From: a virus | Lineage: Duplodnaviria > Heunggongvirae > Uroviricota > Caudoviricetes | Virus record (IMG/VR): IMGVR_UViG_3300014515_000023 | DNA length: 9,984 nucleotides | Direction: 5' to 3' (one strand) | Shown: piece after piece, positions 1 to 6,386 of the stretch | How positions within the stretch are numbered: the stretch's first letter is position 1 | Layout of the letters: each line of letters starts with the position of its first letter | Notes under the pieces: model-generated | Database searches by the model: none | What the model saw: the letters and a program-made list of their open reading frames with translations, nothing else | What the model was told of the DNA's origin: nothing | Program-made: the position numbers and the translations under genes

Positions 1-83
1 AACCTGAGGAGTAAGAGACCTGGCGGGGGAGAAATCCCTCGCCACCTCTGATGAGTCAGGCATCCTCAATGCACCCGCGCTTA

Positions 84-103
84 ACCCGCTTCGGCGGGTT
101 TTT
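84..103 (+). terminator. Rho-independent terminator hairpin upstream of the cassette
   Basis: Stem CCCGC (85-89), loop TTCG, stem GCGGG (94-98), followed by T5 (99-103). It is a near-identical direct copy of the hairpin at 1949-1968. Confidence 0.6.
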
Positions 104-118
104 CTAGCATCTATCTGG

Positions 119-180: not shown

Positions 181-795
181 ATGCAGAATTTATCTCAACA
201 GTTGTTAGAAGCATATGACAAGGAGTGCCGCAAAGAGCTTTCGATCGCGTTAGCACAGGCTTATCTTCATTCGCATATGAAGGCAAAAGAGTTTGGTTCT
301 TTTTGGGCTCAAGCACAGTCATATTTGCGCTGGTTTTATGCCGATGCATTGCTTGAGAATGCGGCTAAGCGTGTGGGGCTGGATTTTGAAGTCGGTAGCA
401 ATGCTGCTAAAAATTGTAAACACATTGCGATTCACTCGAACAACTGGAAAATGACGGCACATCATTTATCGGGTAATGCGCCACTTCCTAAGCAGGCATT
501 GTATAGAGCTGTTTACGCTAATCAAAATTATGAATTGAATTTTGGGGATGAAAATGCCGACTCCCTGGATGGGAGAGCGTCTGGTGGACATGTTTATATG
601 TTACATGATGGCAGTAATCAGCACTTGTCCAAACTGAATTTAACTGTTCCTTCTTCGGATAATTACGGGATTCTTTATACTGAGTCTTTACCAATTATGA
701 CGATGGTAGAAGTTGAAGCAGAAAATGTGGATTCTGAGATTGAAGATAAAATCAAGATTCTTACCGAACAAATAATTAAATCACAGCAATCATGA
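181..795 (+). CDS. Hypothetical protein, 204 aa, first gene of the cassette; no domain recognised
   Basis: Clean ORF with an RBS and an upstream promoter-like site. Its stop TGA (793-795) overlaps the ATG (792-794) of the next gene, which suggests translational coupling. AT-richer than the flanking phage genes by eye. Acidic C-terminal tail. I recognise no catalytic motif. Confidence 0.75.
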   Translation: MQNLSQQLLEAYDKECRKELSIALAQAYLHSHMKAKEFGSFWAQAQSYLRWFYADALLENAAKRVGLDFEVGSNAAKNCKHIAIHSNNWKMTAHHLSGNAPLPKQALYRAVYANQNYELNFGDENADSLDGRASGGHVYMLHDGSNQHLSKLNLTVPSSDNYGILYTESLPIMTMVEVEAENVDSEIEDKIKILTEQIIKSQQS

Positions 796-1937
796 GCATG
801 AATATCGCACAAACACCATTTACTGATAAATCGTTTAATCCTCGTCGCCTTGAGGAGGCAAGAGAGGCAAAAGGGTTGACGATGGCTGAACTTGCCAGAG
901 TGCTCAATATTTCAAGACAAGCTATTTCGTCATTTGAGAAGGGGTTGAAGTCTCCCTCTGCTGATACACTTTCTGCAATAGCCAAGGTGTTAGGATTTCC
1001 AGAACGATTTTTCTTAGCCTCCAGTGCTTCTCCATCTCTGGAGGGGGCGATTCATTTTAGAAGTCGTTCAACTGCGACCAAAAAGGCTCGAGTTACAGGG
1101 AAAACACGTGGGCGTTGGGCGGCATTAATATTGGATGAATGTCTAAAATATGCTCAATTACCAGATGTGGTTCTGCCTGAATTCGATATTATTGATTTTG
1201 AGGTTCTGTCTCTATCTGATATTGAGGATATGTCCACCCAATTAAGGCGTTTTTGGGGGTTAGGTGATGGTCCAATACTCAATTTAACTAGACTTGTTGA
1301 AAATAAAGGAATCGTGGTTTCTCATTTACCTTCTGGTGAGAAAGTTGATGCCTTTTCGTTCTGGCATAATGGGCGGCCTTTAATTATGTTAGATAGCTCG
1401 AAGACGGCTGTTCGCATGCGATTTAGTCTTGCTCATGAACTTGGCCATTTAATTATGCATAGGGCAGTGGAGGATGACTACCTGAATGATAAAGAATTAT
1501 TCGACCTAGTGGAGTTGCAGGCCGATTATTTTGCCTCCAGCTTTTTAATGCCAGCCACGACTTTCGGGCGTGAATTTTATAGTCCAAATTTATCAGCGTT
1601 AGAACGATTAAAACTACGTTGGATTACATCTATCGGTAGTATTGCCATGAGGAGTCATAGCCTTAAGTTAATTAGCGATAATCAGAAAAGCTATATATTT
1701 AAGCAATTAGCGCCATTCCATCGTAGGGAGCCGTTAGATGATGCAATCCCAAAAGAAGAGCCTGAGTTACTTAATAAGTTACTTTTACTTCTTGATAAGC
1801 ATTCAATCATAAAGGTAACTGAGTTAACTGATATCTTTGCTCTTCCTTTAAATGAGTTATCTGCAATTACACGATTTAAAGAATCAGATATGATTCATTC
1901 TGACAATGTTATTTCATTTACCATAAAACAAAAATAA
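792..1937 (+). CDS. Fused XRE-family HTH and ImmA/IrrE-type (COG2856, peptidase M78-like) zinc metallopeptidase, 381 aa
   Basis: N-terminal segment (residues about 20-75, GLTMAELARVLNISRQAISSFEKG) matches the XRE/Cro-C1 helix-turn-helix pattern. HEXXH zinc motif HELGH at residues 215-219 (nt 1434-1448) sits in the context SLAHELGHLIMH typical of ImmA/IrrE peptidases. A C-terminal extension of about 150 aa has unknown function. Followed by a terminator. Confidence 0.85.
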   Translation: MSMNIAQTPFTDKSFNPRRLEEAREAKGLTMAELARVLNISRQAISSFEKGLKSPSADTLSAIAKVLGFPERFFLASSASPSLEGAIHFRSRSTATKKARVTGKTRGRWAALILDECLKYAQLPDVVLPEFDIIDFEVLSLSDIEDMSTQLRRFWGLGDGPILNLTRLVENKGIVVSHLPSGEKVDAFSFWHNGRPLIMLDSSKTAVRMRFSLAHELGHLIMHRAVEDDYLNDKELFDLVELQADYFASSFLMPATTFGREFYSPNLSALERLKLRWITSIGSIAMRSHSLKLISDNQKSYIFKQLAPFHRREPLDDAIPKEEPELLNKLLLLLDKHSIIKVTELTDIFALPLNELSAITRFKESDMIHSDNVISFTIKQK

Positions 1938-2323: not shown

Positions 2324-3379
2324 GTGCGGGTATTACTTCGACCTGTTCTGGTACCGGAACTCGGTCTGGTTATCGTTAAGCCAGGCCGTGAATCAATGTC
2401 AGCATTCCATAACGGCAGAATACTGGTGGAGCCGGAACCAAAAAGCATGCGTAATCTGCCGTCCGGGGTCGTTCCTGCCGCTCGCCAGCCGCTGGTGGAA
2501 GACAAAACATTGCTGCCGTTTTTCAGTAACGCACGGGGGATTCGTGCTGCTGGTGGTGCTGGTGCATTGTCTGACTGGCTGTTGCGCCATATTAAATCCT
2601 GCCAGTGGCCACACGGCGATTATCATCACAGCGAAACCGTCATTCACCGTTATGGTACCGGCGCAATGGTGTTGTGCTGGCACTGCGACAACCAGCTGCG
2701 TGACCAGACATCCGAATCACTCGAGCAACTTGCTCATCAAAACCTGTCAGCATGGATGATTGACGTCATCGGTCACGCAATAAGCGGTACGCAGGAGCGT
2801 GAATTATCTCTGGCTGAATTATCCTGGTGGGCGGTCCGCAATCAGGTGGCGGACGCGCTACCGGAAGCGGTATTACGTCGTTCGCTGGGGTTGCGTGCGG
2901 AAAAAATCCGCTCAATGTACCGTGAAAGCGACATCGTACCGGGAGAGCAGACCGCCACCAGCATACTGAAGCAGCGCACAAAAAATCTTGCGCCGCTGCC
3001 TCACGCCCACCAGCAAAACCCGCCACAGGAAAAGACGGTGGTCAGCATTGCTGTTGATCCGGAGTCACCGGCTCAGTATCTCCAGCGCCAGAAACCACAA
3101 CGGGAAGAGATGCCTGTATACACGCGCTGGGTAAAAACGCAGAAATGCATGACGTGCGGTAATCAGGCAGATGATCCGCATCACATCATTGGTCATGGAC
3201 TGGGAGGGATGGGAACAAAGGCTGATGATTTGTTTGTTATTCCGCTGTGCCGTAAATGTCATAACGAACTGCACGCCGGGGTAAAAGATTTTGAAGAAAA
3301 ACACGGCAGCCAGCTGTTGTTGCTGATTCGTTTTTTAATGCACGCGAGAAATTCGGGTGTCCTGAAGTGGAAAGCATGA
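2324..3379 (+). CDS. DUF968-like (YdfU-like) prophage protein with two Cys/His-rich clusters, 351 aa
   Basis: GTG start preceded by GGAGG (2310-2314). C-terminal cluster C275-x2-C278, H286-H287, H291, C309-x2-C312-H313, H317 (nt about 3146-3274). N-terminal cluster C93, H97, HH101-102, C118-WH-C121. Sits immediately upstream of rusA. The family call is from memory of Qin-prophage YdfU. Confidence 0.65.
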   Translation: MRVLLRPVLVPELGLVIVKPGRESMSAFHNGRILVEPEPKSMRNLPSGVVPAARQPLVEDKTLLPFFSNARGIRAAGGAGALSDWLLRHIKSCQWPHGDYHHSETVIHRYGTGAMVLCWHCDNQLRDQTSESLEQLAHQNLSAWMIDVIGHAISGTQERELSLAELSWWAVRNQVADALPEAVLRRSLGLRAEKIRSMYRESDIVPGEQTATSILKQRTKNLAPLPHAHQQNPPQEKTVVSIAVDPESPAQYLQRQKPQREEMPVYTRWVKTQKCMTCGNQADDPHHIIGHGLGGMGTKADDLFVIPLCRKCHNELHAGVKDFEEKHGSQLLLLIRFLMHARNSGVLKWKA

Positions 3380-3745
3380 ATGACTGAACGCATAGAATTT
3401 GTTTTGCCTTACCCGCCAACGGTGAACACTTACTGGCGACGTCGTGGCAGCACATATTTTGTATCAAAAGTCGGTGAGCGTTATCGCCGTGATGTGGCGC
3501 TTATTGTTCGCCAGCAGCAACTGAAATTAAACCTGTCCGGAAGGCCGGCAATAGAAATTATTGCAGAGCCACCGGATAAGCGCCGTCGTGACCTGGACAA
3601 TATCCTGAAGGCACCACTGGATGTACTGACGCATGCGGGGCTGCTCATAGACGACGAGCAGTTTGATGAAATTAATATTGTGCGCGGTCAGCTTGTTCCT
3701 GGTGGGCGGTTGGGGATAAAAATCACAGAACTGGAGTACGCATGA
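3380..3745 (+). CDS. rusA: RusA-family Holliday junction resolvase, 121 aa
   Basis: Size and motifs match E. coli RusA as recalled: LPYPPTVNTYWRRRG near the N-terminus, the catalytic-region RRRDLDNILKAPLDVL, and GGRLGIKITE near the C-terminus. Stop overlaps the next gene's start (ATGA at 3742-3745). Confidence 0.9.
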   Translation: MTERIEFVLPYPPTVNTYWRRRGSTYFVSKVGERYRRDVALIVRQQQLKLNLSGRPAIEIIAEPPDKRRRDLDNILKAPLDVLTHAGLLIDDEQFDEINIVRGQLVPGGRLGIKITELEYA

Positions 3746-4431
3746 ATAACCAGTATTTACAGTTTGTTCGTGAGCAACTCATGATTGCCACCGCCGATTT
3801 GAGTGGATCAACAAAAGGGCAGCTTGAGGCCTGGCAGGAGAATGCCATGTTTGATACAGGGCGTTACAGGCGTAAAAAAATCCGGTACCGCGATGAAGTG
3901 ACTGGAAAAATGATAACGCGGGATAATCCACCAATCCCGGGAAAGCAATCGCTGGCGAAGGGGGTGTCAATTCCTCTCGTCAGTCCGGTTGAGTTTTCGA
4001 CATCATCGTGGCGGCGGGCTGTTCTGTCTCTTGAAGAACATCATAAAGCCTGGTTGTTGTGGTGTTACAGCGGGAGTATTTGTTGGGAATATCAGATCGC
4101 GATAACGCAGTGGGTGTGGAATGAATTTAAAACCCGGTACGGCACCAGAAAAATTGCAGGGAAAACGCAGGAGCGCGTGAAGAAGTTGATCTGGCTGGCG
4201 GCACAGGATGTCAGAGGATGGATTACCGGGTGTGAGGTCTACCAGAGACAGGAGCTTGCCAGACTGTGTGGAGTTAAGCCTGATAACTGGAGCCATAATT
4301 ATGCGAACTACTGGCGTGAGATGTGCGATATTTTTAAGAGTCTCGATAGAGAATCTGTGATTTGCACCGTGAAAATAAGAGCGCAACAAAAAGCGACTTT
4401 TTCACGACGAGATATTGCAAAAGTCAATTAA
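3742..4431 (+). CDS. Putative late-gene antiterminator Q (phage 82/Qin quuQ-like class), 229 aa
   Basis: Position is canonical: immediately after rusA and immediately before a promoter-like region plus a short-transcript terminator. Translationally coupled to rusA. The family assignment is by synteny and recollection, not by a motif I can verify. Confidence 0.55.
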   Translation: MNNQYLQFVREQLMIATADLSGSTKGQLEAWQENAMFDTGRYRRKKIRYRDEVTGKMITRDNPPIPGKQSLAKGVSIPLVSPVEFSTSSWRRAVLSLEEHHKAWLLWCYSGSICWEYQIAITQWVWNEFKTRYGTRKIAGKTQERVKKLIWLAAQDVRGWITGCEVYQRQELARLCGVKPDNWSHNYANYWREMCDIFKSLDRESVICTVKIRAQQKATFSRRDIAKVN

Positions 4432-4452
4432 ATAGCGTACGTTTCGTATAAA
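4415..4452 (+). promoter_or_regulatory. Candidate late promoter (PR'-like) / Q-utilisation region
   Basis: TTGCAA at 4415-4420 and -10-like TATAAA at 4447-4452 lie directly downstream of the Q stop and about 50-70 nt upstream of a strong terminator, analogous to lambda PR'-tR'. The spacing is non-ideal, so this is tentative. Confidence 0.3.
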
Positions 4453-4492
4453 TCTGATATTTTGCCGATTTTGTACGCGATGGCAAAGTAAG

Positions 4493-4523
4493 AAAAAAAA
4501 CTGCCGTCAGGCGGTTTTTTTTT
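4493..4523 (+). terminator. Intrinsic terminator (tR'-like), potentially bidirectional
   Basis: A8 (4493-4500), stem CTGCC (4501-4505), loop GTCA, stem GGCGG (4510-4514), T9 (4515-4523). Confidence 0.65.
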
Positions 4524-4645
4524 ATGCCCAAAATCGCGTCAGTACAGTAAACACGCTGGTGGTTGCGAATACGGGTCTTTCAGCTTGCTGGCTTTTTCGA
4601 CAAGAGTTATTGGTATGTCACGTTAACCGGAAAAAGGAAAAAGAC

Positions 4646-4843
4646 ATGCTAAAACAGCAGGATATGACAGAAACCGCCAGAGTGGTGTTTAATGAATTAA
4701 GCGTTACCGAACCGGCGACAGTCGGGGAGATAGCGCAGAATACTTACCTTTCACGCGAACGCTGCCAGTTAATACTGACCCAGCTGGTTATGGCGGGGGG
4801 GGCAGACTATCAGTTCGGTTGTTACAGACGCCTTCAGTCCTGA
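4646..4843 (+). CDS. Small hypothetical protein, about 65 aa, possible HTH/winged-helix DNA-binding protein
   Basis: ATG at 4646 preceded by AAGGAAAAAG RBS. This is the in-frame internal start of track ORF 4559..4843. The segment TVGEIAQNTYLSRERCQLILTQL resembles a helix-turn-helix. Sits between tR' and the methyltransferase. Confidence 0.45.
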   Translation: MLKQQDMTETARVVFNELSVTEPATVGEIAQNTYLSRERCQLILTQLVMAGGADYQFGCYRRLQS

Positions 4844-4993
4844 AGGCTTTTTTATTTGTGGTAAATGGGCGGCTGGTGGGTGTTAGGGGCACCCACCAGC
4901 CATCTGCTCATGCGTTGGGTTCACAAGCAAACCTCAGGCCCACTGCTTTGCGCAAAAGCAGAATGAGCCTATCAGAGACAGGCTTAATGATCC

Positions 4994-6043
4994 ATGCTTA
5001 ATACTGTAAAAATATCCAGTTGTGAGTTAATCAACGCCGACTGCCTGGAATTTATCCGGTCGTTACCCGAAAATTCTGTTGACCTGATAGTCACGGACCC
5101 GCCGTACTTTAAAGTGAAGCCTGAGGGCTGGGATAACCAGTGGAAGGGCGACGATGATTACCTGAAGTGGCTGGACCAGTGTCTGGCGCAGTTCTGGCGG
5201 GTGCTGAAACCTGTCGGAAGTCTTTACCTGTTCTGTGGTCATCGCCTGGCATCTGATATCGAAATCATGATGCGTGAACGCTTCAGTGTGCTGAACCATA
5301 TTATCTGGGCGAAGCCGTCCGGACGCTGGAACGGATGCAACAAGGAAAGCCTGCGGGCGTATTTCCCCGCCACAGAGCGCATTCTGTTCGCGGAACATTA
5401 TCAGGGGCCGTATCGTCCGAAAGATGCCGGGTATGCGGCGAAGGGCAGTGCACTGAAACAGCATGTGATGGCCCCGCTGATTTCTTACTTTCGTGATGCG
5501 CGCGCTGCCCTGGGGATAACGGCAAAACAGATTGCAGATGCCACAGGAAAGAAAAACATGGTGTCGCACTGGTTCAGTGCCAGTCAGTGGCAGCTACCGA
5601 ACGAAAGCGATTATCTGAAATTACAGTCGCTGTTTGCCCGGGTGGCAGAAGAGAAACATCAGCGCGGTGAACTGGAAAAGCCCCACCACCAGCTGGTGGA
5701 TACGTATACGTCACTGAACCGGCAGTATGTGGAGCTGCAGAGTGAATATAAGCATCTGCGGCGGTATTTTGGTGTGACGGCGCAGGTGCCGTACACGGAT
5801 GTGTGGACACATAAACCGGTGCAGTTCTATCCCGGGAAACATCCGTGCGAAAAACCGGCAGAAATGCTGCAGCAGATAATCAGCGCAAGCAGTCGTCCGG
5901 GTGACCTGGTTGCAGATTTTTTTATGGGCTCAGGTTCAACGGTAAAAGCGGCACTGGCGCTTGGGCGTCGTGCGATTGGCGTTGAACTGGAGACCGGACG
6001 TTTTGAGCAGACAGTCAGGGAAGTTCAGGATTTAATCGTTTGA
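4994..6043 (+). CDS. DNA N6-adenine or N4-cytosine methyltransferase, beta-class motif order, apparently orphan, 349 aa
   Basis: Motif IV DPPY at residues 35-38 (nt 5096-5107) in the context SVDLIVTDPPYF. SAM-binding motif I FxGxG (FFMGSGST) at residues 309-316 (nt 5918-5941). Motif IV before motif I is the beta-class order. No restriction-endonuclease-like ORF is adjacent. Confidence 0.9.
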   Translation: MLNTVKISSCELINADCLEFIRSLPENSVDLIVTDPPYFKVKPEGWDNQWKGDDDYLKWLDQCLAQFWRVLKPVGSLYLFCGHRLASDIEIMMRERFSVLNHIIWAKPSGRWNGCNKESLRAYFPATERILFAEHYQGPYRPKDAGYAAKGSALKQHVMAPLISYFRDARAALGITAKQIADATGKKNMVSHWFSASQWQLPNESDYLKLQSLFARVAEEKHQRGELEKPHHQLVDTYTSLNRQYVELQSEYKHLRRYFGVTAQVPYTDVWTHKPVQFYPGKHPCEKPAEMLQQIISASSRPGDLVADFFMGSGSTVKAALALGRRAIGVELETGRFEQTVREVQDLIV

Positions 6044-6092
6044 AACGGATGAGATTGCAGAATTAATTACGCACCATTATTATTCTGCTCCC

Positions 6093-6168
6093 GGCCCTTT
6101 AGCTCAGTGGTGAGAGCGAGCGACTCATAATCGCCAGGTCGCTGGTTCAAATCCAGCAAGGGCCACCA
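6093..6168 (+). tRNA. ileZ: tRNA-Ile2-like, anticodon CAU (lysidine type), 76 nt with encoded CCA
   Basis: Manual cloverleaf: acceptor GGCCCTT/AAGGGCC, D-arm GCTC-AGTGGTGA-GAGC, anticodon loop CTCATAA, T-loop TTCAAAT, then A-CCA. Closely resembles E. coli ileX as I recall it. A Met identity cannot be excluded from sequence alone. Confidence 0.85.
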
Positions 6169-6175
6169 TCACATA

Positions 6176-6252
6176 CCGCCATTAGCTCATCAGGAAAGAG
6201 CGCCAGCTTTCGAAGCTGGTTGCGCGGAGTTCGGGTCCCCGAAGGCGGTCCA
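6176..6252 (+). tRNA. tRNA-Arg, anticodon UCG, with non-canonical features
   Basis: Anticodon stem CCAGC/GCTGG is perfect with loop TTTCGAA (anticodon TCG). D-arm GCTC...GAGC. The acceptor stem has one A-A mismatch. The T stem has one A-C mismatch. The T-loop TTCGGGT has G at the usually invariant A58 position. Discriminator T, then CCA. Confidence 0.6.
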
Positions 6253-6265
6253 TTATCTGTATCCT

Positions 6266-6342
6266 GCGTTGTTAGCTCAGCCGGACAGAGCAATTGCCTT
6301 CTAAGCAATCGGTCACTGGTTCGAATCCAGTACAACGCGCCA
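6266..6342 (+). tRNA. tRNA-Arg, anticodon UCU, 77 nt with encoded CCA
   Basis: Perfect acceptor GCGTTGT/ACAACGC, anticodon loop CTTCTAA, T-loop TTCGAAT, discriminator G, CCA. Architecture is like E. coli argU. Confidence 0.85.
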
Positions 6343-6386
6343 CACTTATTTTCCCTGGCTCGCTTTTGCGGGCTTTTTTTAAATGT

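What the first reader, a model, noticed from the sequence alone, without database searches (positions are those of the whole stretch)
4415..4523. Short late-promoter-to-terminator module right after Q, with additional strong terminators further downstream
A promoter-like region followed within about 70 nt by a strong terminator (A8-hairpin-T9) looks like a lambda-type PR'/tR' pair producing a short terminated transcript unless Q modifies RNA polymerase. Further intrinsic terminators lie at 6578-6599, 6791-6817, 7065-7085 and 9256-9285, between Q and the lysis genes, so downstream expression (methyltransferase, tRNAs, esterase, holin) would depend strongly on Q antitermination. Which promoter-like site is the real qut-bearing late promoter (here or in the 6387-7088 repeats) cannot be resolved from sequence alone.
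Basis: partly seen in the sequence, partly recalled or inferred. Interest (0 to 1): 0.35.

Follow-up and report, generated by a model that had tools for sequence, protein, structure and literature searches.

The report
Phage-82-type late promoter, pause site, terminator
The stretch right after the prophage's Q gene is an ordinary copy of the well-studied phage 82 late-gene switch: a promoter, a built-in pause site where Q boards RNA polymerase, and a terminator about 72 bases downstream.

Summary
Window 4415-4523 runs exactly from the first base of a -35 hexamer to the last T of an A8-hairpin-T9 terminator.

- **Q family.** The upstream gene (3742-4431) is a Q82-family antiterminator: Pfam PF06323, 66% identical to phage 82 Q with no gaps.
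- **Element map.** The map rests on a phage whose Q is 97% identical to Q82, and on published descriptions of 82 pR'.
  - -35 TTGCAA 4415-4420, inside Q's last codons
  - -10 TACGTT 4438-4443
  - +1 at 4450
  - extended -10-like pause element TGaTATTTT 4455-4463
  - GCC 4464-4466
  - pause at T4474 (+25)
  - terminator 4492-4523
  - predicted terminated RNA about 72-74 nt
- **Conservation.** In 80 distinct homologous loci from many enterobacterial genera, these elements are 88-100% conserved. A terminator follows in essentially all of them, although its sequence is swapped among unrelated hairpins.
- **Which promoter carries qut.** Homology settles it: this one, not the 6387-7088 repeats. Those repeats are STnc100/PasD-family small-RNA genes, and three of the "further terminators" are their 3' ends.
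- **tRNAs.** They have their own probable promoter, so they may not need Q.

This is a new member of a known kind and of low novelty. One small open point is a structurally conserved leader hairpin.

The parts
3742..4431 (+). Q antiterminator gene, Q82 family (229 aa)
   Evidence: PF06323 E=1.4e-83. 66% identity to phage 82 Q over 229 aa with no gaps. PHROG 304.
4415..4420 (+). PR' -35 hexamer TTGCAA, inside Q codons 225-227
   Evidence: 94-100% conserved in 80 loci. The synonymous third-codon positions -37, -34, -31 and -28 are 97-100% conserved, against 41-82% at neighbouring third positions.
4438..4443 (+). PR' -10 hexamer TACGTT (17-bp spacer)
   Evidence: It aligns with TATATT of the 82-like phage and of PPompW. 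Family consensus is T88 A99 t75 a82 T97 T99.
4450..4452 (+). Inferred transcription start (+1 = A4450, run AAA)
   Evidence: Counted back from GCC = +15-17 as defined for 82 pR' (PMC5001585). AAA is 89-97% conserved. Inference only; no 5' end mapping.
4455..4463 (+). Sigma-dependent pause element: extended -10-like TGaTATTTT (+6 to +14)
   Evidence: T+6 94%; G+7, A+8, T+9, A+10 and T+14 100%; T+11 97%; +12 and +13 free. This gives TGnTAtnnT. It matches the published description of 82 pR'.
4464..4475 (+). GC-rich discriminator-like GCC (+15-17), AT-rich tract, and pause site T4474/A4475 (+25/+26)
   Evidence: GCC or CGC in all loci; T+25 in 93%. PMC5001585 gives GCC at +15-17, AT-rich +18-25, U at +25, and G displaced into the pause end by a +18 insertion.
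4458..4490 (+). Predicted leader RNA hairpin; 5' arm is the pause element plus GCC, and the loop holds the pause site
   Evidence: Fold. Arm complementarity exceeds shuffles in three sequence classes (p = 0.0016, 0.045, 0.0006). No RNAalifold consensus. Role unknown.
4492..4523 (+). tR' intrinsic terminator: A-tract, CTGCC-GUCA-GGCGG hairpin, T9. Symmetric, so possibly bidirectional.
   Evidence: Homologous to the terminator after a different Q type in Stx2a phage Stx2_EH2201.
4450..4522 (+). Predicted short PR'-tR' transcript, about 72-74 nt
   Evidence: Inferred from the start and the terminator. Analogous short RNAs are documented for lambda, 21, 82 and Stx phages (PMC7547250).
4646..4843 (+). 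First late-operon ORF (65 aa, function unknown), followed by a terminator at 4830-4847
   Evidence: Annotated in AR_0013. PHROG 331. Terminator.
6055..6083 (+). Probable tRNA promoter pT (TTGCAG, 17 bp, TATTAT)
   Evidence: Aligns at 90% column identity with the annotated putative pT of phage 933W.
6357..6381 (+). Terminator after the three tRNA genes (6093-6342)
   Evidence: Homologous to the 933W 'terminator upstream of the stx genes'.
6417..6607 (+). STnc100-family small-RNA gene, copy 1; its terminator is 6577-6596
   Evidence: Rfam RF02076, 136 bits against a gathering score of 47.
6646..6819 (+). Divergent STnc100-like copy; its terminator is 6790-6813
   Evidence: RF02076, 30 bits, below the gathering score. 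Terminator.
6885..7094 (+). STnc100-family small-RNA gene, copy 2; its terminator is 7064-7083
   Evidence: RF02076, 165 bits. Direct repeats.
9253..9290 (+). Terminator between the esterase gene (7317-9170) and the holin gene (9321-9536)
   Evidence: -17.0 kcal/mol, z = -4.5. Holin start taken from the AR_0013 annotation.

Best explanation
Window 4415-4523 is the late-gene control cassette of a phage-82-type lambdoid prophage of E. coli. It holds the late promoter PR', the Q-utilisation (qut) region with its sigma-70-dependent pause element, and the first terminator tR'.

Proposed mechanism:
1. Host RNA polymerase with sigma-70 starts at A4450.
2. Sigma-70, still on the polymerase, re-binds the extended -10-like sequence TGaTATTTT at +6 to +14.
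3. The complex scrunches and pauses at +25/+26 (T4474/A4475).
4. Without Q, the polymerase escapes and stops at the A8-hairpin-T9 terminator, releasing an RNA of about 72-74 nt.
5. With Q, made from the gene that ends 19 bp upstream of the start, Q bound to DNA near the promoter boards the paused complex with help from NusA. The polymerase becomes terminator-resistant.
6. It can then read through tR' and the six or more further terminators before the holin gene.

Shown here: the gene family, the element-by-element match to phage 82 pR', conservation across 80 loci, and terminator folding. Inferred: that this copy is active, the exact start and pause positions, and Q-dependent read-through.
For: - **Q family.** PF06323. 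66% identical to Q82 over its full length with no gaps. PF06323 is the Q82 family according to PMC9388147.
- **Match to an 82-like phage.** PhiR47_2 has a Q 97% identical to Q82. Its downstream sequence aligns with the window without gaps and is identical from +1 to +17.
- **Published descriptors of 82 pR' are met.** These are a -10-like element starting at +9, an extended -10, GCC at +15-17, AT-rich +18-25, G at +24, U at +25, and an A-run start consistent with the reported slippage.
- **Conservation in 80 distinct loci with Q identity 48-100%**. These come from Escherichia, Shigella, Enterobacter, Klebsiella, Citrobacter, Kluyvera, Raoultella, Leclercia and others.
  - -35 hexamer: 94-100%
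  - -10 hexamer positions T-12, A-11, T-8, T-7: 88-99%
  - TGnTAtnnT: 94-100%
  - T+25: 93%
- **DNA-level selection on the -35.** Synonymous codon positions under the -35 are 97-100% conserved.
- **Terminator recurrence.** 74 of 80 loci score a terminator with its T-tract starting at +47 to +93. The other 6 have visible hairpins. At least 8 unrelated hairpin sequences are used.
- **This terminator.** -17.2 kcal/mol, z = -5.9.
- **No second site.** No other qut-like motif is in the window.
Against: - There are no transcript data for this element or strain.
- The -10 hexamer TACGTT matches the consensus at only 3 of 6 positions, and the generic promoter scan does not report the site. PR' may therefore be weaker here than in phage 82.
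- An overlapping TATAAA (4447-4452) could act as a competing -10, but it is present in only 11 of 80 loci.
- The GC core of the terminator is short: 5 pairs, -6.9 kcal/mol. Termination may be incomplete.
- The Q-binding element of phage 82 could not be located from the sources available, so that part of qut is unverified.
- The closest genome copy sits in a prophage with a frameshifted lysis gene and a nearby IS element. The switch may be vestigial in some hosts.
Confidence: 0.9

Rival explanations
1. The short PR'-tR' transcript is not just a by-product. It is a trans-acting, Hfq-dependent regulatory small RNA in lysogens, as StxS is for Stx phages, and the cassette is kept partly for that reason.
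For: - StxS, made from PR' and ended at tR', is an Hfq-binding regulator. Its authors propose that antiterminated phage promoters are a general source of small RNAs (PMC7547250).
- The predicted RNA has the usual small-RNA build: a 5' hairpin, an A-rich single-stranded linker (AAGUAAGAAAAAAAA), and a terminator hairpin with a 9-U tail.
- The linker GGCAAAGUAAG is retained in the E. coli group in front of three different terminator hairpins.
Against: - There is no sequence similarity to the 933W StxS region beyond a weak 32-nt match at the promoter core.
- Conservation of the 5' half is fully explained by DNA-level pause-element function.
- The 3' half is swapped freely among loci, which argues against a conserved seed.
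- No Rfam family reaches threshold here.
- This reading is compatible with the main explanation rather than an alternative to it.
Confidence: 0.2
2. The real Q-responsive late promoter lies further downstream, in the 6387-7088 repeats. The site at 4415-4523 would then be an unrelated promoter-like sequence followed by the terminator of the Q gene.
For: - The repeats contain TTGACT/TTGACA hexamers (6403, 6871) and -10-like TATAAT/GATAAT strings (6955, 6497).
- The generic scan does not score the 4415 site.
Against: - The repeats are STnc100-family small-RNA genes (165 and 136 bits). This is a known prophage small-RNA family related to PasD.
- No copy of the 82-type pause element is present there, even with 3 mismatches allowed.
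- In all 80 homologous loci the promoter and pause element sit at a fixed distance from the Q stop codon, whatever lies downstream.
- In the 82-like phage, the holin gene follows about 310 bp after Q with no such repeats.
Confidence: 0.03
3. The cassette is a decayed remnant in a defective prophage. The sequence is homologous to a PR'-tR' module but no longer works, because the -10 is too weak or Q is inactive.
For: - The -10 hexamer is TACGTT rather than TATATT.
- The nearest complete-genome copy lies in a prophage with a frameshifted lysis gene and an IS fragment.
- The Shigella and K-12-like copies show decay: TGATAC in the pause element and broken terminator stems (L011 and L060).
Against: - Q is full length with all 102 family-invariant residues aligned.
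- The pause element, GCC and T+25 are intact.
- TACGTT keeps T-12, A-11, T-8 and T-7, and it recurs in related loci alongside TACATT and TATGTT.
- The identical cassette is present in at least nine viral contigs plus this window, and 52 RefSeq records match the 401-bp query at 99% identity or more.
Confidence: 0.07

Closest known systems
Phage 82 late promoter pR' with its qut site, +25 sigma-70-dependent pause and downstream terminator (Q82 system)
   Same: - The Q family is the same (PF06323, 66% identity, equal length).
- The -35 TTGCAA and the 17-bp spacer are the same.
- +1 to +17 (AAATCTGATATTTTGCC) is identical to that of the 97%-Q82 phage PhiR47_2.
- GCC at +15-17, G+24 and U+25 are shared.
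- The terminator hairpin starts at about +52 in both.
   Different: - The -10 is TACGTT rather than TATATT.
- There are a few substitutions between +18 and +35.
- The terminator hairpin is unrelated in sequence.
- The 82-like phage reaches its holin about 310 bp after Q. Here 4.9 kb of cargo, with at least six more terminators, lies in between.
Lambda PR' - 6S RNA - tR' with Q-lambda
   Same: The logic is the same: a constitutive promoter next to Q, a sigma-dependent promoter-proximal pause, a short terminated RNA, and processive antitermination by Q.
   Different: - The Q family is unrelated (PF03589).
- The pause is at +16/17, with the -10-like element starting near +1.
- The RNA is 194 nt (established knowledge; PMC5001585 and PMC9388147).
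933W / Sp5 Stx-phage pR' - StxS - tR' late region
   Same: - The control logic is the same.
- The downstream cargo is homologous. pT, ileZ-argN-argO and the following terminator are 89.9% identical. An STnc100-like element and the nanS-p-type esterase follow.
- The tR' hairpin of the window is homologous to the one in Stx2a phage Stx2_EH2201.
   Different: - The Q family differs.
- The terminated RNA is 258 nt and is processed to 74 nt.
- The RNA shows no sequence similarity.
- There are no stx genes here. The slot that holds stx2AB in 933W holds extra STnc100-like copies.
STnc100 / PasD prophage small RNAs (Rfam RF02076)
   Different: It is not part of the PR'-tR' switch itself. These are separate genes lying in the path of the late transcript.

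Membership tests
Q82-type PR'-qut-tR' late control module | Lies directly downstream of, and overlaps the 3' end of, a Q82-family (PF06323) gene | tested here: met
   PF06323 E=1.4e-83. 66% identity to Q82. The Q stop codon is at -21 to -19 in all 80 loci.
Q82-type PR'-qut-tR' late control module | Sigma-70 promoter with -35 and -10 hexamers at the positions of 82 pR' | tested here: met
   TTGCAA, 17 bp, TACGTT aligns with TTGCAA, 17 bp, TATATT of the 82-like phage. Conserved in the family. The -10 matches the consensus at only 3 of 6 positions.
Q82-type PR'-qut-tR' late control module | Extended -10-like sigma-dependent pause element starting at +9, with TG upstream | tested here: met
   TGaTATTTT at +6 to +14. 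The key positions are 94-100% conserved. It fits PMC5001585.
Q82-type PR'-qut-tR' late control module | GC-rich discriminator-like GCC at +15-17, AT-rich +18-25, U at the +25 pause end | tested here: met
   GCC 4464-4466, GATTTTGT 4467-4474, T4474. Descriptors from PMC5001585.
Q82-type PR'-qut-tR' late control module | Q-binding element recognised by Q82-type protein | not testable with these tools
   PMC4914094 places the 82 QBE within -31 to +30, but its sequence was not in the held text and the supplements are not held. Conserved non-hexamer positions (A-29, A-28, A-23, A-18, T-6, A+2, T+4) are candidates only.
Q82-type PR'-qut-tR' late control module | Intrinsic terminator within about 100 nt of the start | tested here: met
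   Hairpin plus T9 at +43 to +74. A terminator is present in essentially all 80 loci.
Q82-type PR'-qut-tR' late control module | Sigma-dependent pausing at +25 and Q/NusA-dependent read-through | not testable with these tools
   Needs in vitro transcription or in vivo transcript mapping.
StxS-like PR'-derived Hfq small RNA | Sequence similarity to StxS | tested here: not met
   blastn of window 4415-4560 against the 933W pR'-tR' region gives only a 32-nt, 81% match at the promoter core, E = 0.024.
StxS-like PR'-derived Hfq small RNA | Stable RNA bound by Hfq with trans targets | not testable with these tools
   No expression or binding data are available.
Rfam STnc370 | Score at or above the gathering threshold (54 bits) | tested here: not met
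   39.4 bits on the minus strand and 22.6 bits on the plus strand. The alignment is carried by the symmetric A-run/hairpin/T-run.

The most novel reading that the evidence does not exclude
The leader hairpin may be a functional part of Q82-type qut sites. It spans RNA +9 to +41. Its 5' arm is the RNA copy of the pause element plus GCC, and its loop holds the +25 pause site.

Evidence that it is real: it recurs in at least three sequence classes with different arm sequences, and the complementarity exceeds chance in each. In the 8 leader variants (of 60 distinct leaders) that lack it, the terminator stem starts at the same place (+31).

Possible roles are helping pause escape or sigma release, setting how Q82 (whose mechanism is still unsolved) engages the nascent RNA, or stabilising the short RNA as a regulator in lysogens.
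Probability: 0.2. Interest if true: 0.5.

Novelty: new member of a known kind. Interest (0 to 1): 0.2.

Why it matters
It matters little as a discovery and somewhat more as annotation.

- **Annotation.** It fixes the late promoter, the pause site and the first terminator of a prophage type found in about 5% of complete E. coli genomes (266 of 5,426). RefSeq records leave these features unannotated.
- **Experimental use.** It shows which elements must be kept or mutated to control expression of the late-region cargo. That cargo includes a methyltransferase, small RNAs, an esterase and the lysis genes; in related phages it includes Shiga toxin.
- **Family consensus.** The 80-locus comparison gives a family-wide consensus for Q82-type qut sites (TTGCAA, 17 bp, TAyrTT, 6 bp, AAATCTGATAtnnT-GCC ... 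T+25). This could help structural work on Q82, the one Q family with no match among solved structures.

Tried and rejected
- **Alternative -10 TATAAA (4447-4452) as the true -10.** Rejected. The A at -2 that creates it is present in only 11 of 80 loci. It has no usable -35. It would start transcription inside the pause element.
- **A second qut site in the 6387-7088 repeats.** Rejected. None is found with up to 3 mismatches, and the repeats are STnc100 genes.
- **Rfam STnc370 on the minus strand (4488-4564).** Rejected. It is below threshold on both strands and is driven by the symmetric terminator.
- **Other sub-threshold Rfam hits over 4407-4527** (Phe leader, OrzO-P, isrK and others). Rejected as terminator-shaped noise.
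- **RNAalifold consensus for the leader hairpin.** It gave no pairs, because the arm register shifts between classes. Only a per-class permutation test supports the hairpin.
- **Exact 82 pR' sequence in the literature library.** Not found, and the supplements of PMC4914094 are not held. The map therefore relies on a 97%-Q82 phage plus verbal descriptors.
- **Link to the EHEC late-region small RNA HnrS.** It could not be tested, because the paper text gives no sequence. The O157 locus I fetched has a different Q type.
- **PDB search with Q.** No relative found; the only hit was a spurious 19.6-bit match.
- **Stx2a_1447 locus.** Uninformative for StxS.
Full report
**What the window is.** The window is the nin-to-lysis segment of a lambdoid prophage of Escherichia coli.
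- Bases 4300-4700 are 100% identical to strain AR_0013. 266 of 5,426 complete E. coli genomes carry at least 80% of that stretch.
- The gene order is as follows:
  - RmrT/RmrA defence pair, 181-1937
  - DUF968 gene, 2324-3379
  - RusA, 3380-3745
  - Q, 3742-4431
  - a 65-aa ORF, 4646-4843
  - DNA methyltransferase, 4994-6043
  - three tRNAs, 6093-6342
  - small-RNA repeats
  - SASA-family esterase, 7317-9170
  - holin, 9321-9536
  - YdfR-like gene

**Checking the observation.**
- Coordinates 4415-4523 run from the first T of TTGCAA to the last T of a nine-T run. The ruler label gives the first base of each line; an early off-by-one of mine was corrected.
- The terminator is an A8 run (4493-4500), the hairpin CTGCC-GUCA-GGCGG (4501-4514), and T9 (4515-4523).
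- With the A/U extension it folds at -17.2 kcal/mol, z = -5.9, and none of 200 shuffles folds as well. The GC core alone is weak at -6.9 kcal/mol.
- Terminator-like sites are twice as frequent as in shuffles: 23 against 10.5 +/- 2.9.

**What the element is.** The upstream gene belongs to Pfam PF06323 (E = 1.4e-83). The literature equates this family with Q82, one of three unrelated Q families (PMC9388147). The protein is 229 aa, the same length as phage 82 Q, and 66% identical to it with no gaps.

The GenBank record for phage 82 ends at the Q stop codon. I therefore used phage PhiR47_2, whose Q is 97% identical to Q82. Its sequence downstream of Q aligns with the window base for base. Both have:
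- TTGCAA
- a 17-bp spacer
- a -10 hexamer (TATATT there, TACGTT here)
- six bases
- AAATCTGATATTTTGCC, which is identical in the two

The Roberts laboratory's description of 82 pR' (PMC5001585) gives independent landmarks. All of them fit if +1 is A4450:

| Published landmark | Window |
|---|---|
| -10-like element begins at +9 | T4458 |
| carries an extended -10 (TG) | T4455-G4456 |
| closer to TATAAT than lambda's | TATTTT |
| +15-17 is GCC | 4464-4466 |
| +18-25 is AT-rich | GATTTTGT |
| a one-base insertion at +18 puts a G at the pause end, so +24 is G | G4473 |
| paused RNA ends in U at +25 | T4474 |

The A-run start is also consistent with the reported initiation slippage at this promoter.

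**Comparative evidence.** I fetched 133 loci encoding relatives of this Q: 53 from one genome per species and 80 from viral contigs. Together with loci fetched earlier and the window itself, 139 sequences carried a usable Q 3' end. They collapse to 80 distinct sequences around that end. Q identity to the window ranges from 48% to 100%. The genera include Escherichia, Shigella, Enterobacter, Klebsiella, Citrobacter, Kluyvera, Raoultella, Leclercia, Atlantibacter, Lelliottia, Siccibacter and Scandinavium. All but one align without gaps from -45 to +17. Conservation is as follows:

| Element | Conservation |
|---|---|
| -35 hexamer TTGCAA | 94-100% |
| Q stop codon | always at -21 to -19 |
| -10 hexamer | T88 A99 t75 a82 T97 T99 |
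| +1 to +3 (AAA) | 89-97% |
| T+6 | 94% |
| G+7, A+8, T+9, A+10, T+14 | 100% |
| T+11 | 97% |
| +12, +13 | free |
| +15-17 | GCC or CGC |
| T+25 | 93% |

The pause element therefore reduces to TGnTAtnnT, which is the minimal extended -10 signature.

The -35 hexamer lies inside Q codons 225-227. The synonymous third positions beneath and beside it (-37, -34, -31, -28) are 97-100% conserved. Flanking third positions (-43, -40, -25, -22) are 41-82% conserved. This shows selection on the DNA itself rather than on the protein.

**The terminator is conserved as a function, not as a sequence.** A simple hairpin-plus-T-tract search finds a terminator with its T-tract starting between +47 and +93 in 74 of the 80 sequences. 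The other six have visible hairpins with weaker T-tracts or decayed stems. At least eight unrelated hairpin sequences are used.

In the window, the upstream half (promoter to about +42) matches PPompW-type prophages. From the A-run onward it matches Stx2a phages and O157 prophages, which carry a different Q type and promoter. The recombination joint therefore sits at tR', as expected if the promoter-pause cassette travels with its cognate Q and the terminator travels with the late cargo.

It is here.
- The 82-type start/pause motif occurs once in the window, even with three mismatches allowed.
- Its distance from the Q stop codon is fixed across the family, whatever follows.
- The repeats are two full copies and one degenerate copy of the STnc100 small-RNA family: Rfam RF02076 at 165, 136 and 30 bits. 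This known prophage small RNA was recently linked to PasD (bioRxiv 10.64898/2026.05.13.724894).
- The terminators at 6577, 6790 and 7064 are their 3' ends.

**How far downstream genes depend on Q.** The late transcript must cross these terminators before reaching the holin gene:
- tR'
- 4830-4847
- 6357-6374
- 6577-6596
- 6790-6813
- 7064-7083
- a weak site at 7192-7207
- 9253-9281

It is less safe for the tRNAs. Window 5942-6384 is 89.9% identical to the 933W segment that carries the annotated putative tRNA promoter pT, ileZ-argN-argO and the terminator that precedes stx2. The pT hexamers are intact here: TTGCAG 6055-6060 and TATTAT 6078-6083. The STnc100 genes are also expected to be transcribed on their own.

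**Mechanism, and what is shown versus inferred.**
- Shown: family membership of Q, the element-by-element match to 82 pR', family-wide conservation with DNA-level selection, terminator thermodynamics, and uniqueness within the window.
- Taken from established knowledge of Q82 (PMC5001585, PMC4914094, PMC9388147):
  - sigma-70 re-binds the -10-like element
  - the complex scrunches and pauses at +25/26
  - DNA-bound Q engages it with NusA's help
  - the modified polymerase ignores terminators
- Inferred for this copy: promoter activity, the exact 5' and 3' ends, and Q responsiveness.
- Caveats:
  - the -10 is weak (3 of 6)
  - the terminator's GC core is short
  - the QBE is unmapped
  - some hosts may carry a defective prophage

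**The short RNA.** The predicted 72-74-nt product folds into a 5' hairpin (4458-4490), an A-rich linker, and the terminator hairpin.
- Short PR'-tR' RNAs are documented for lambda (6S), 21, 82 and others. StxS of Stx phages is an Hfq-dependent regulator (PMC7547250).
- The window RNA has no sequence similarity to the 933W StxS region, and no Rfam family reaches threshold.
- A regulatory role is possible but unsupported.

**A small unexplained feature.** The 5' hairpin uses the RNA copy of the pause element plus GCC as its 5' arm and places the +25 pause site in its loop.
- Equivalent hairpins occur in other sequence classes with different arms: UUUGCC/GGCAAA, UGUGCC/GGCA, GUCGCC/GGUCGAC and GCUGCC/GGCGGC.
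- Arm complementarity exceeds composition-matched shuffles in three independent classes (p = 0.0016, 0.045 and 0.0006; Fisher 7e-6).
- Single-sequence z-scores are modest, -0.7 to -3.9.
- RNAalifold finds no common structure, because the register shifts between classes.
- Eight leader variants lack this hairpin and have the terminator stem starting at about +31 instead.
- I could not find this feature discussed in the held literature.

**Verdict.** The finding is real and correctly interpreted. It is a new member of a thoroughly studied kind, the phage 82 type of late-gene antitermination switch. Its value is in precise annotation and in a family-wide consensus for Q82-type qut sites, not in novelty.

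Noticed in passing
window 181-1937, with a terminator at 1949-1964: Two overlapping ORFs match the RosmerTA anti-phage defence pair. RmrT (181-795) scores E = 7.5e-10. RmrA (792-1937, HTH plus M78 peptidase) scores E = 5.5e-102. The pair sits as a self-terminated insert in the nin region. It is absent from the otherwise similar AR_0013 prophage.
   Followed up: partly
window 6384-7094, compared with L144 (933W) 2413-4193: The slot between the post-tRNA terminator and the esterase gene holds stx2AB in 933W. Here it holds two full copies and one degenerate copy of an STnc100/PasD-family small-RNA gene. 933W has one such element just after stxB.
   Followed up: partly
window 6055-6083: A probable tRNA promoter (TTGCAG, 17 bp, TATTAT) is homologous to the annotated putative pT of 933W. 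The generic promoter scan missed it. The tRNAs may therefore be expressed in lysogens independently of Q.
   Followed up: partly
window 4458-4490 and homologous loci L003, L006-L008, L012-L058: A leader RNA hairpin overlaps the pause element, with the +25 pause site in its loop. It recurs with different arm sequences in several classes. Eight leader variants replace it with a terminator stem starting at about +31, giving a predicted RNA of only about 50 nt.
   Followed up: partly
window 4415-4431: The PR' -35 hexamer is dual-coding with Q residues I225-A226-K227. Synonymous sites there are 97-100% conserved across 80 loci, and the Q stop codon is always 19-21 bp upstream of the start.
   Followed up: yes
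window about 4490-4500: A mosaic joint lies here. Upstream matches PPompW-type Q82 prophages. From the terminator onward the sequence matches Stx2a phages and O157 prophages that carry Q21-type Q genes.
   Followed up: yes
window 4430-4460, compared with L144 1661-1691: There is a weak 32-nt similarity (81%, E = 0.024 in a tiny search) between this PR' core (AAATAGCGTACGTTTCGTATAAATCTGATAT) and the annotated pR' of 933W, which serves a different Q family. It may be chance or a shared promoter core.
   Followed up: partly
window 7102-7123, minus strand: A strong minus-strand terminator (-16.9 kcal/mol, z = -3.8) faces the end of STnc100 copy 2. RefSeq annotates only a pseudogene fragment nearby, and what it terminates is unclear.
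   Followed up: no
window 23-104: A sub-threshold Rfam hit to isrK (26 bits against a gathering score of 50) lies upstream of the RmrTA pair. isrK is the Gifsy-1 small RNA tied to an antitermination-controlled transcript.
   Followed up: no
window 6093-6168: ARAGORN calls this a tRNA-Met (CAT anticodon). RefSeq and the 933W record annotate it as tRNA-Ile (ileZ, AUA-reading after lysidine modification).
   Followed up: no
L011, L060 (Shigella flexneri) and L009, L010 (E. coli ECMA0423): These are decayed copies of the same cassette. The pause element is mutated to TGATAC, and the terminator stems are broken (CCCTCCC...GCGGG). This suggests loss of function in cryptic prophages.
   Followed up: no
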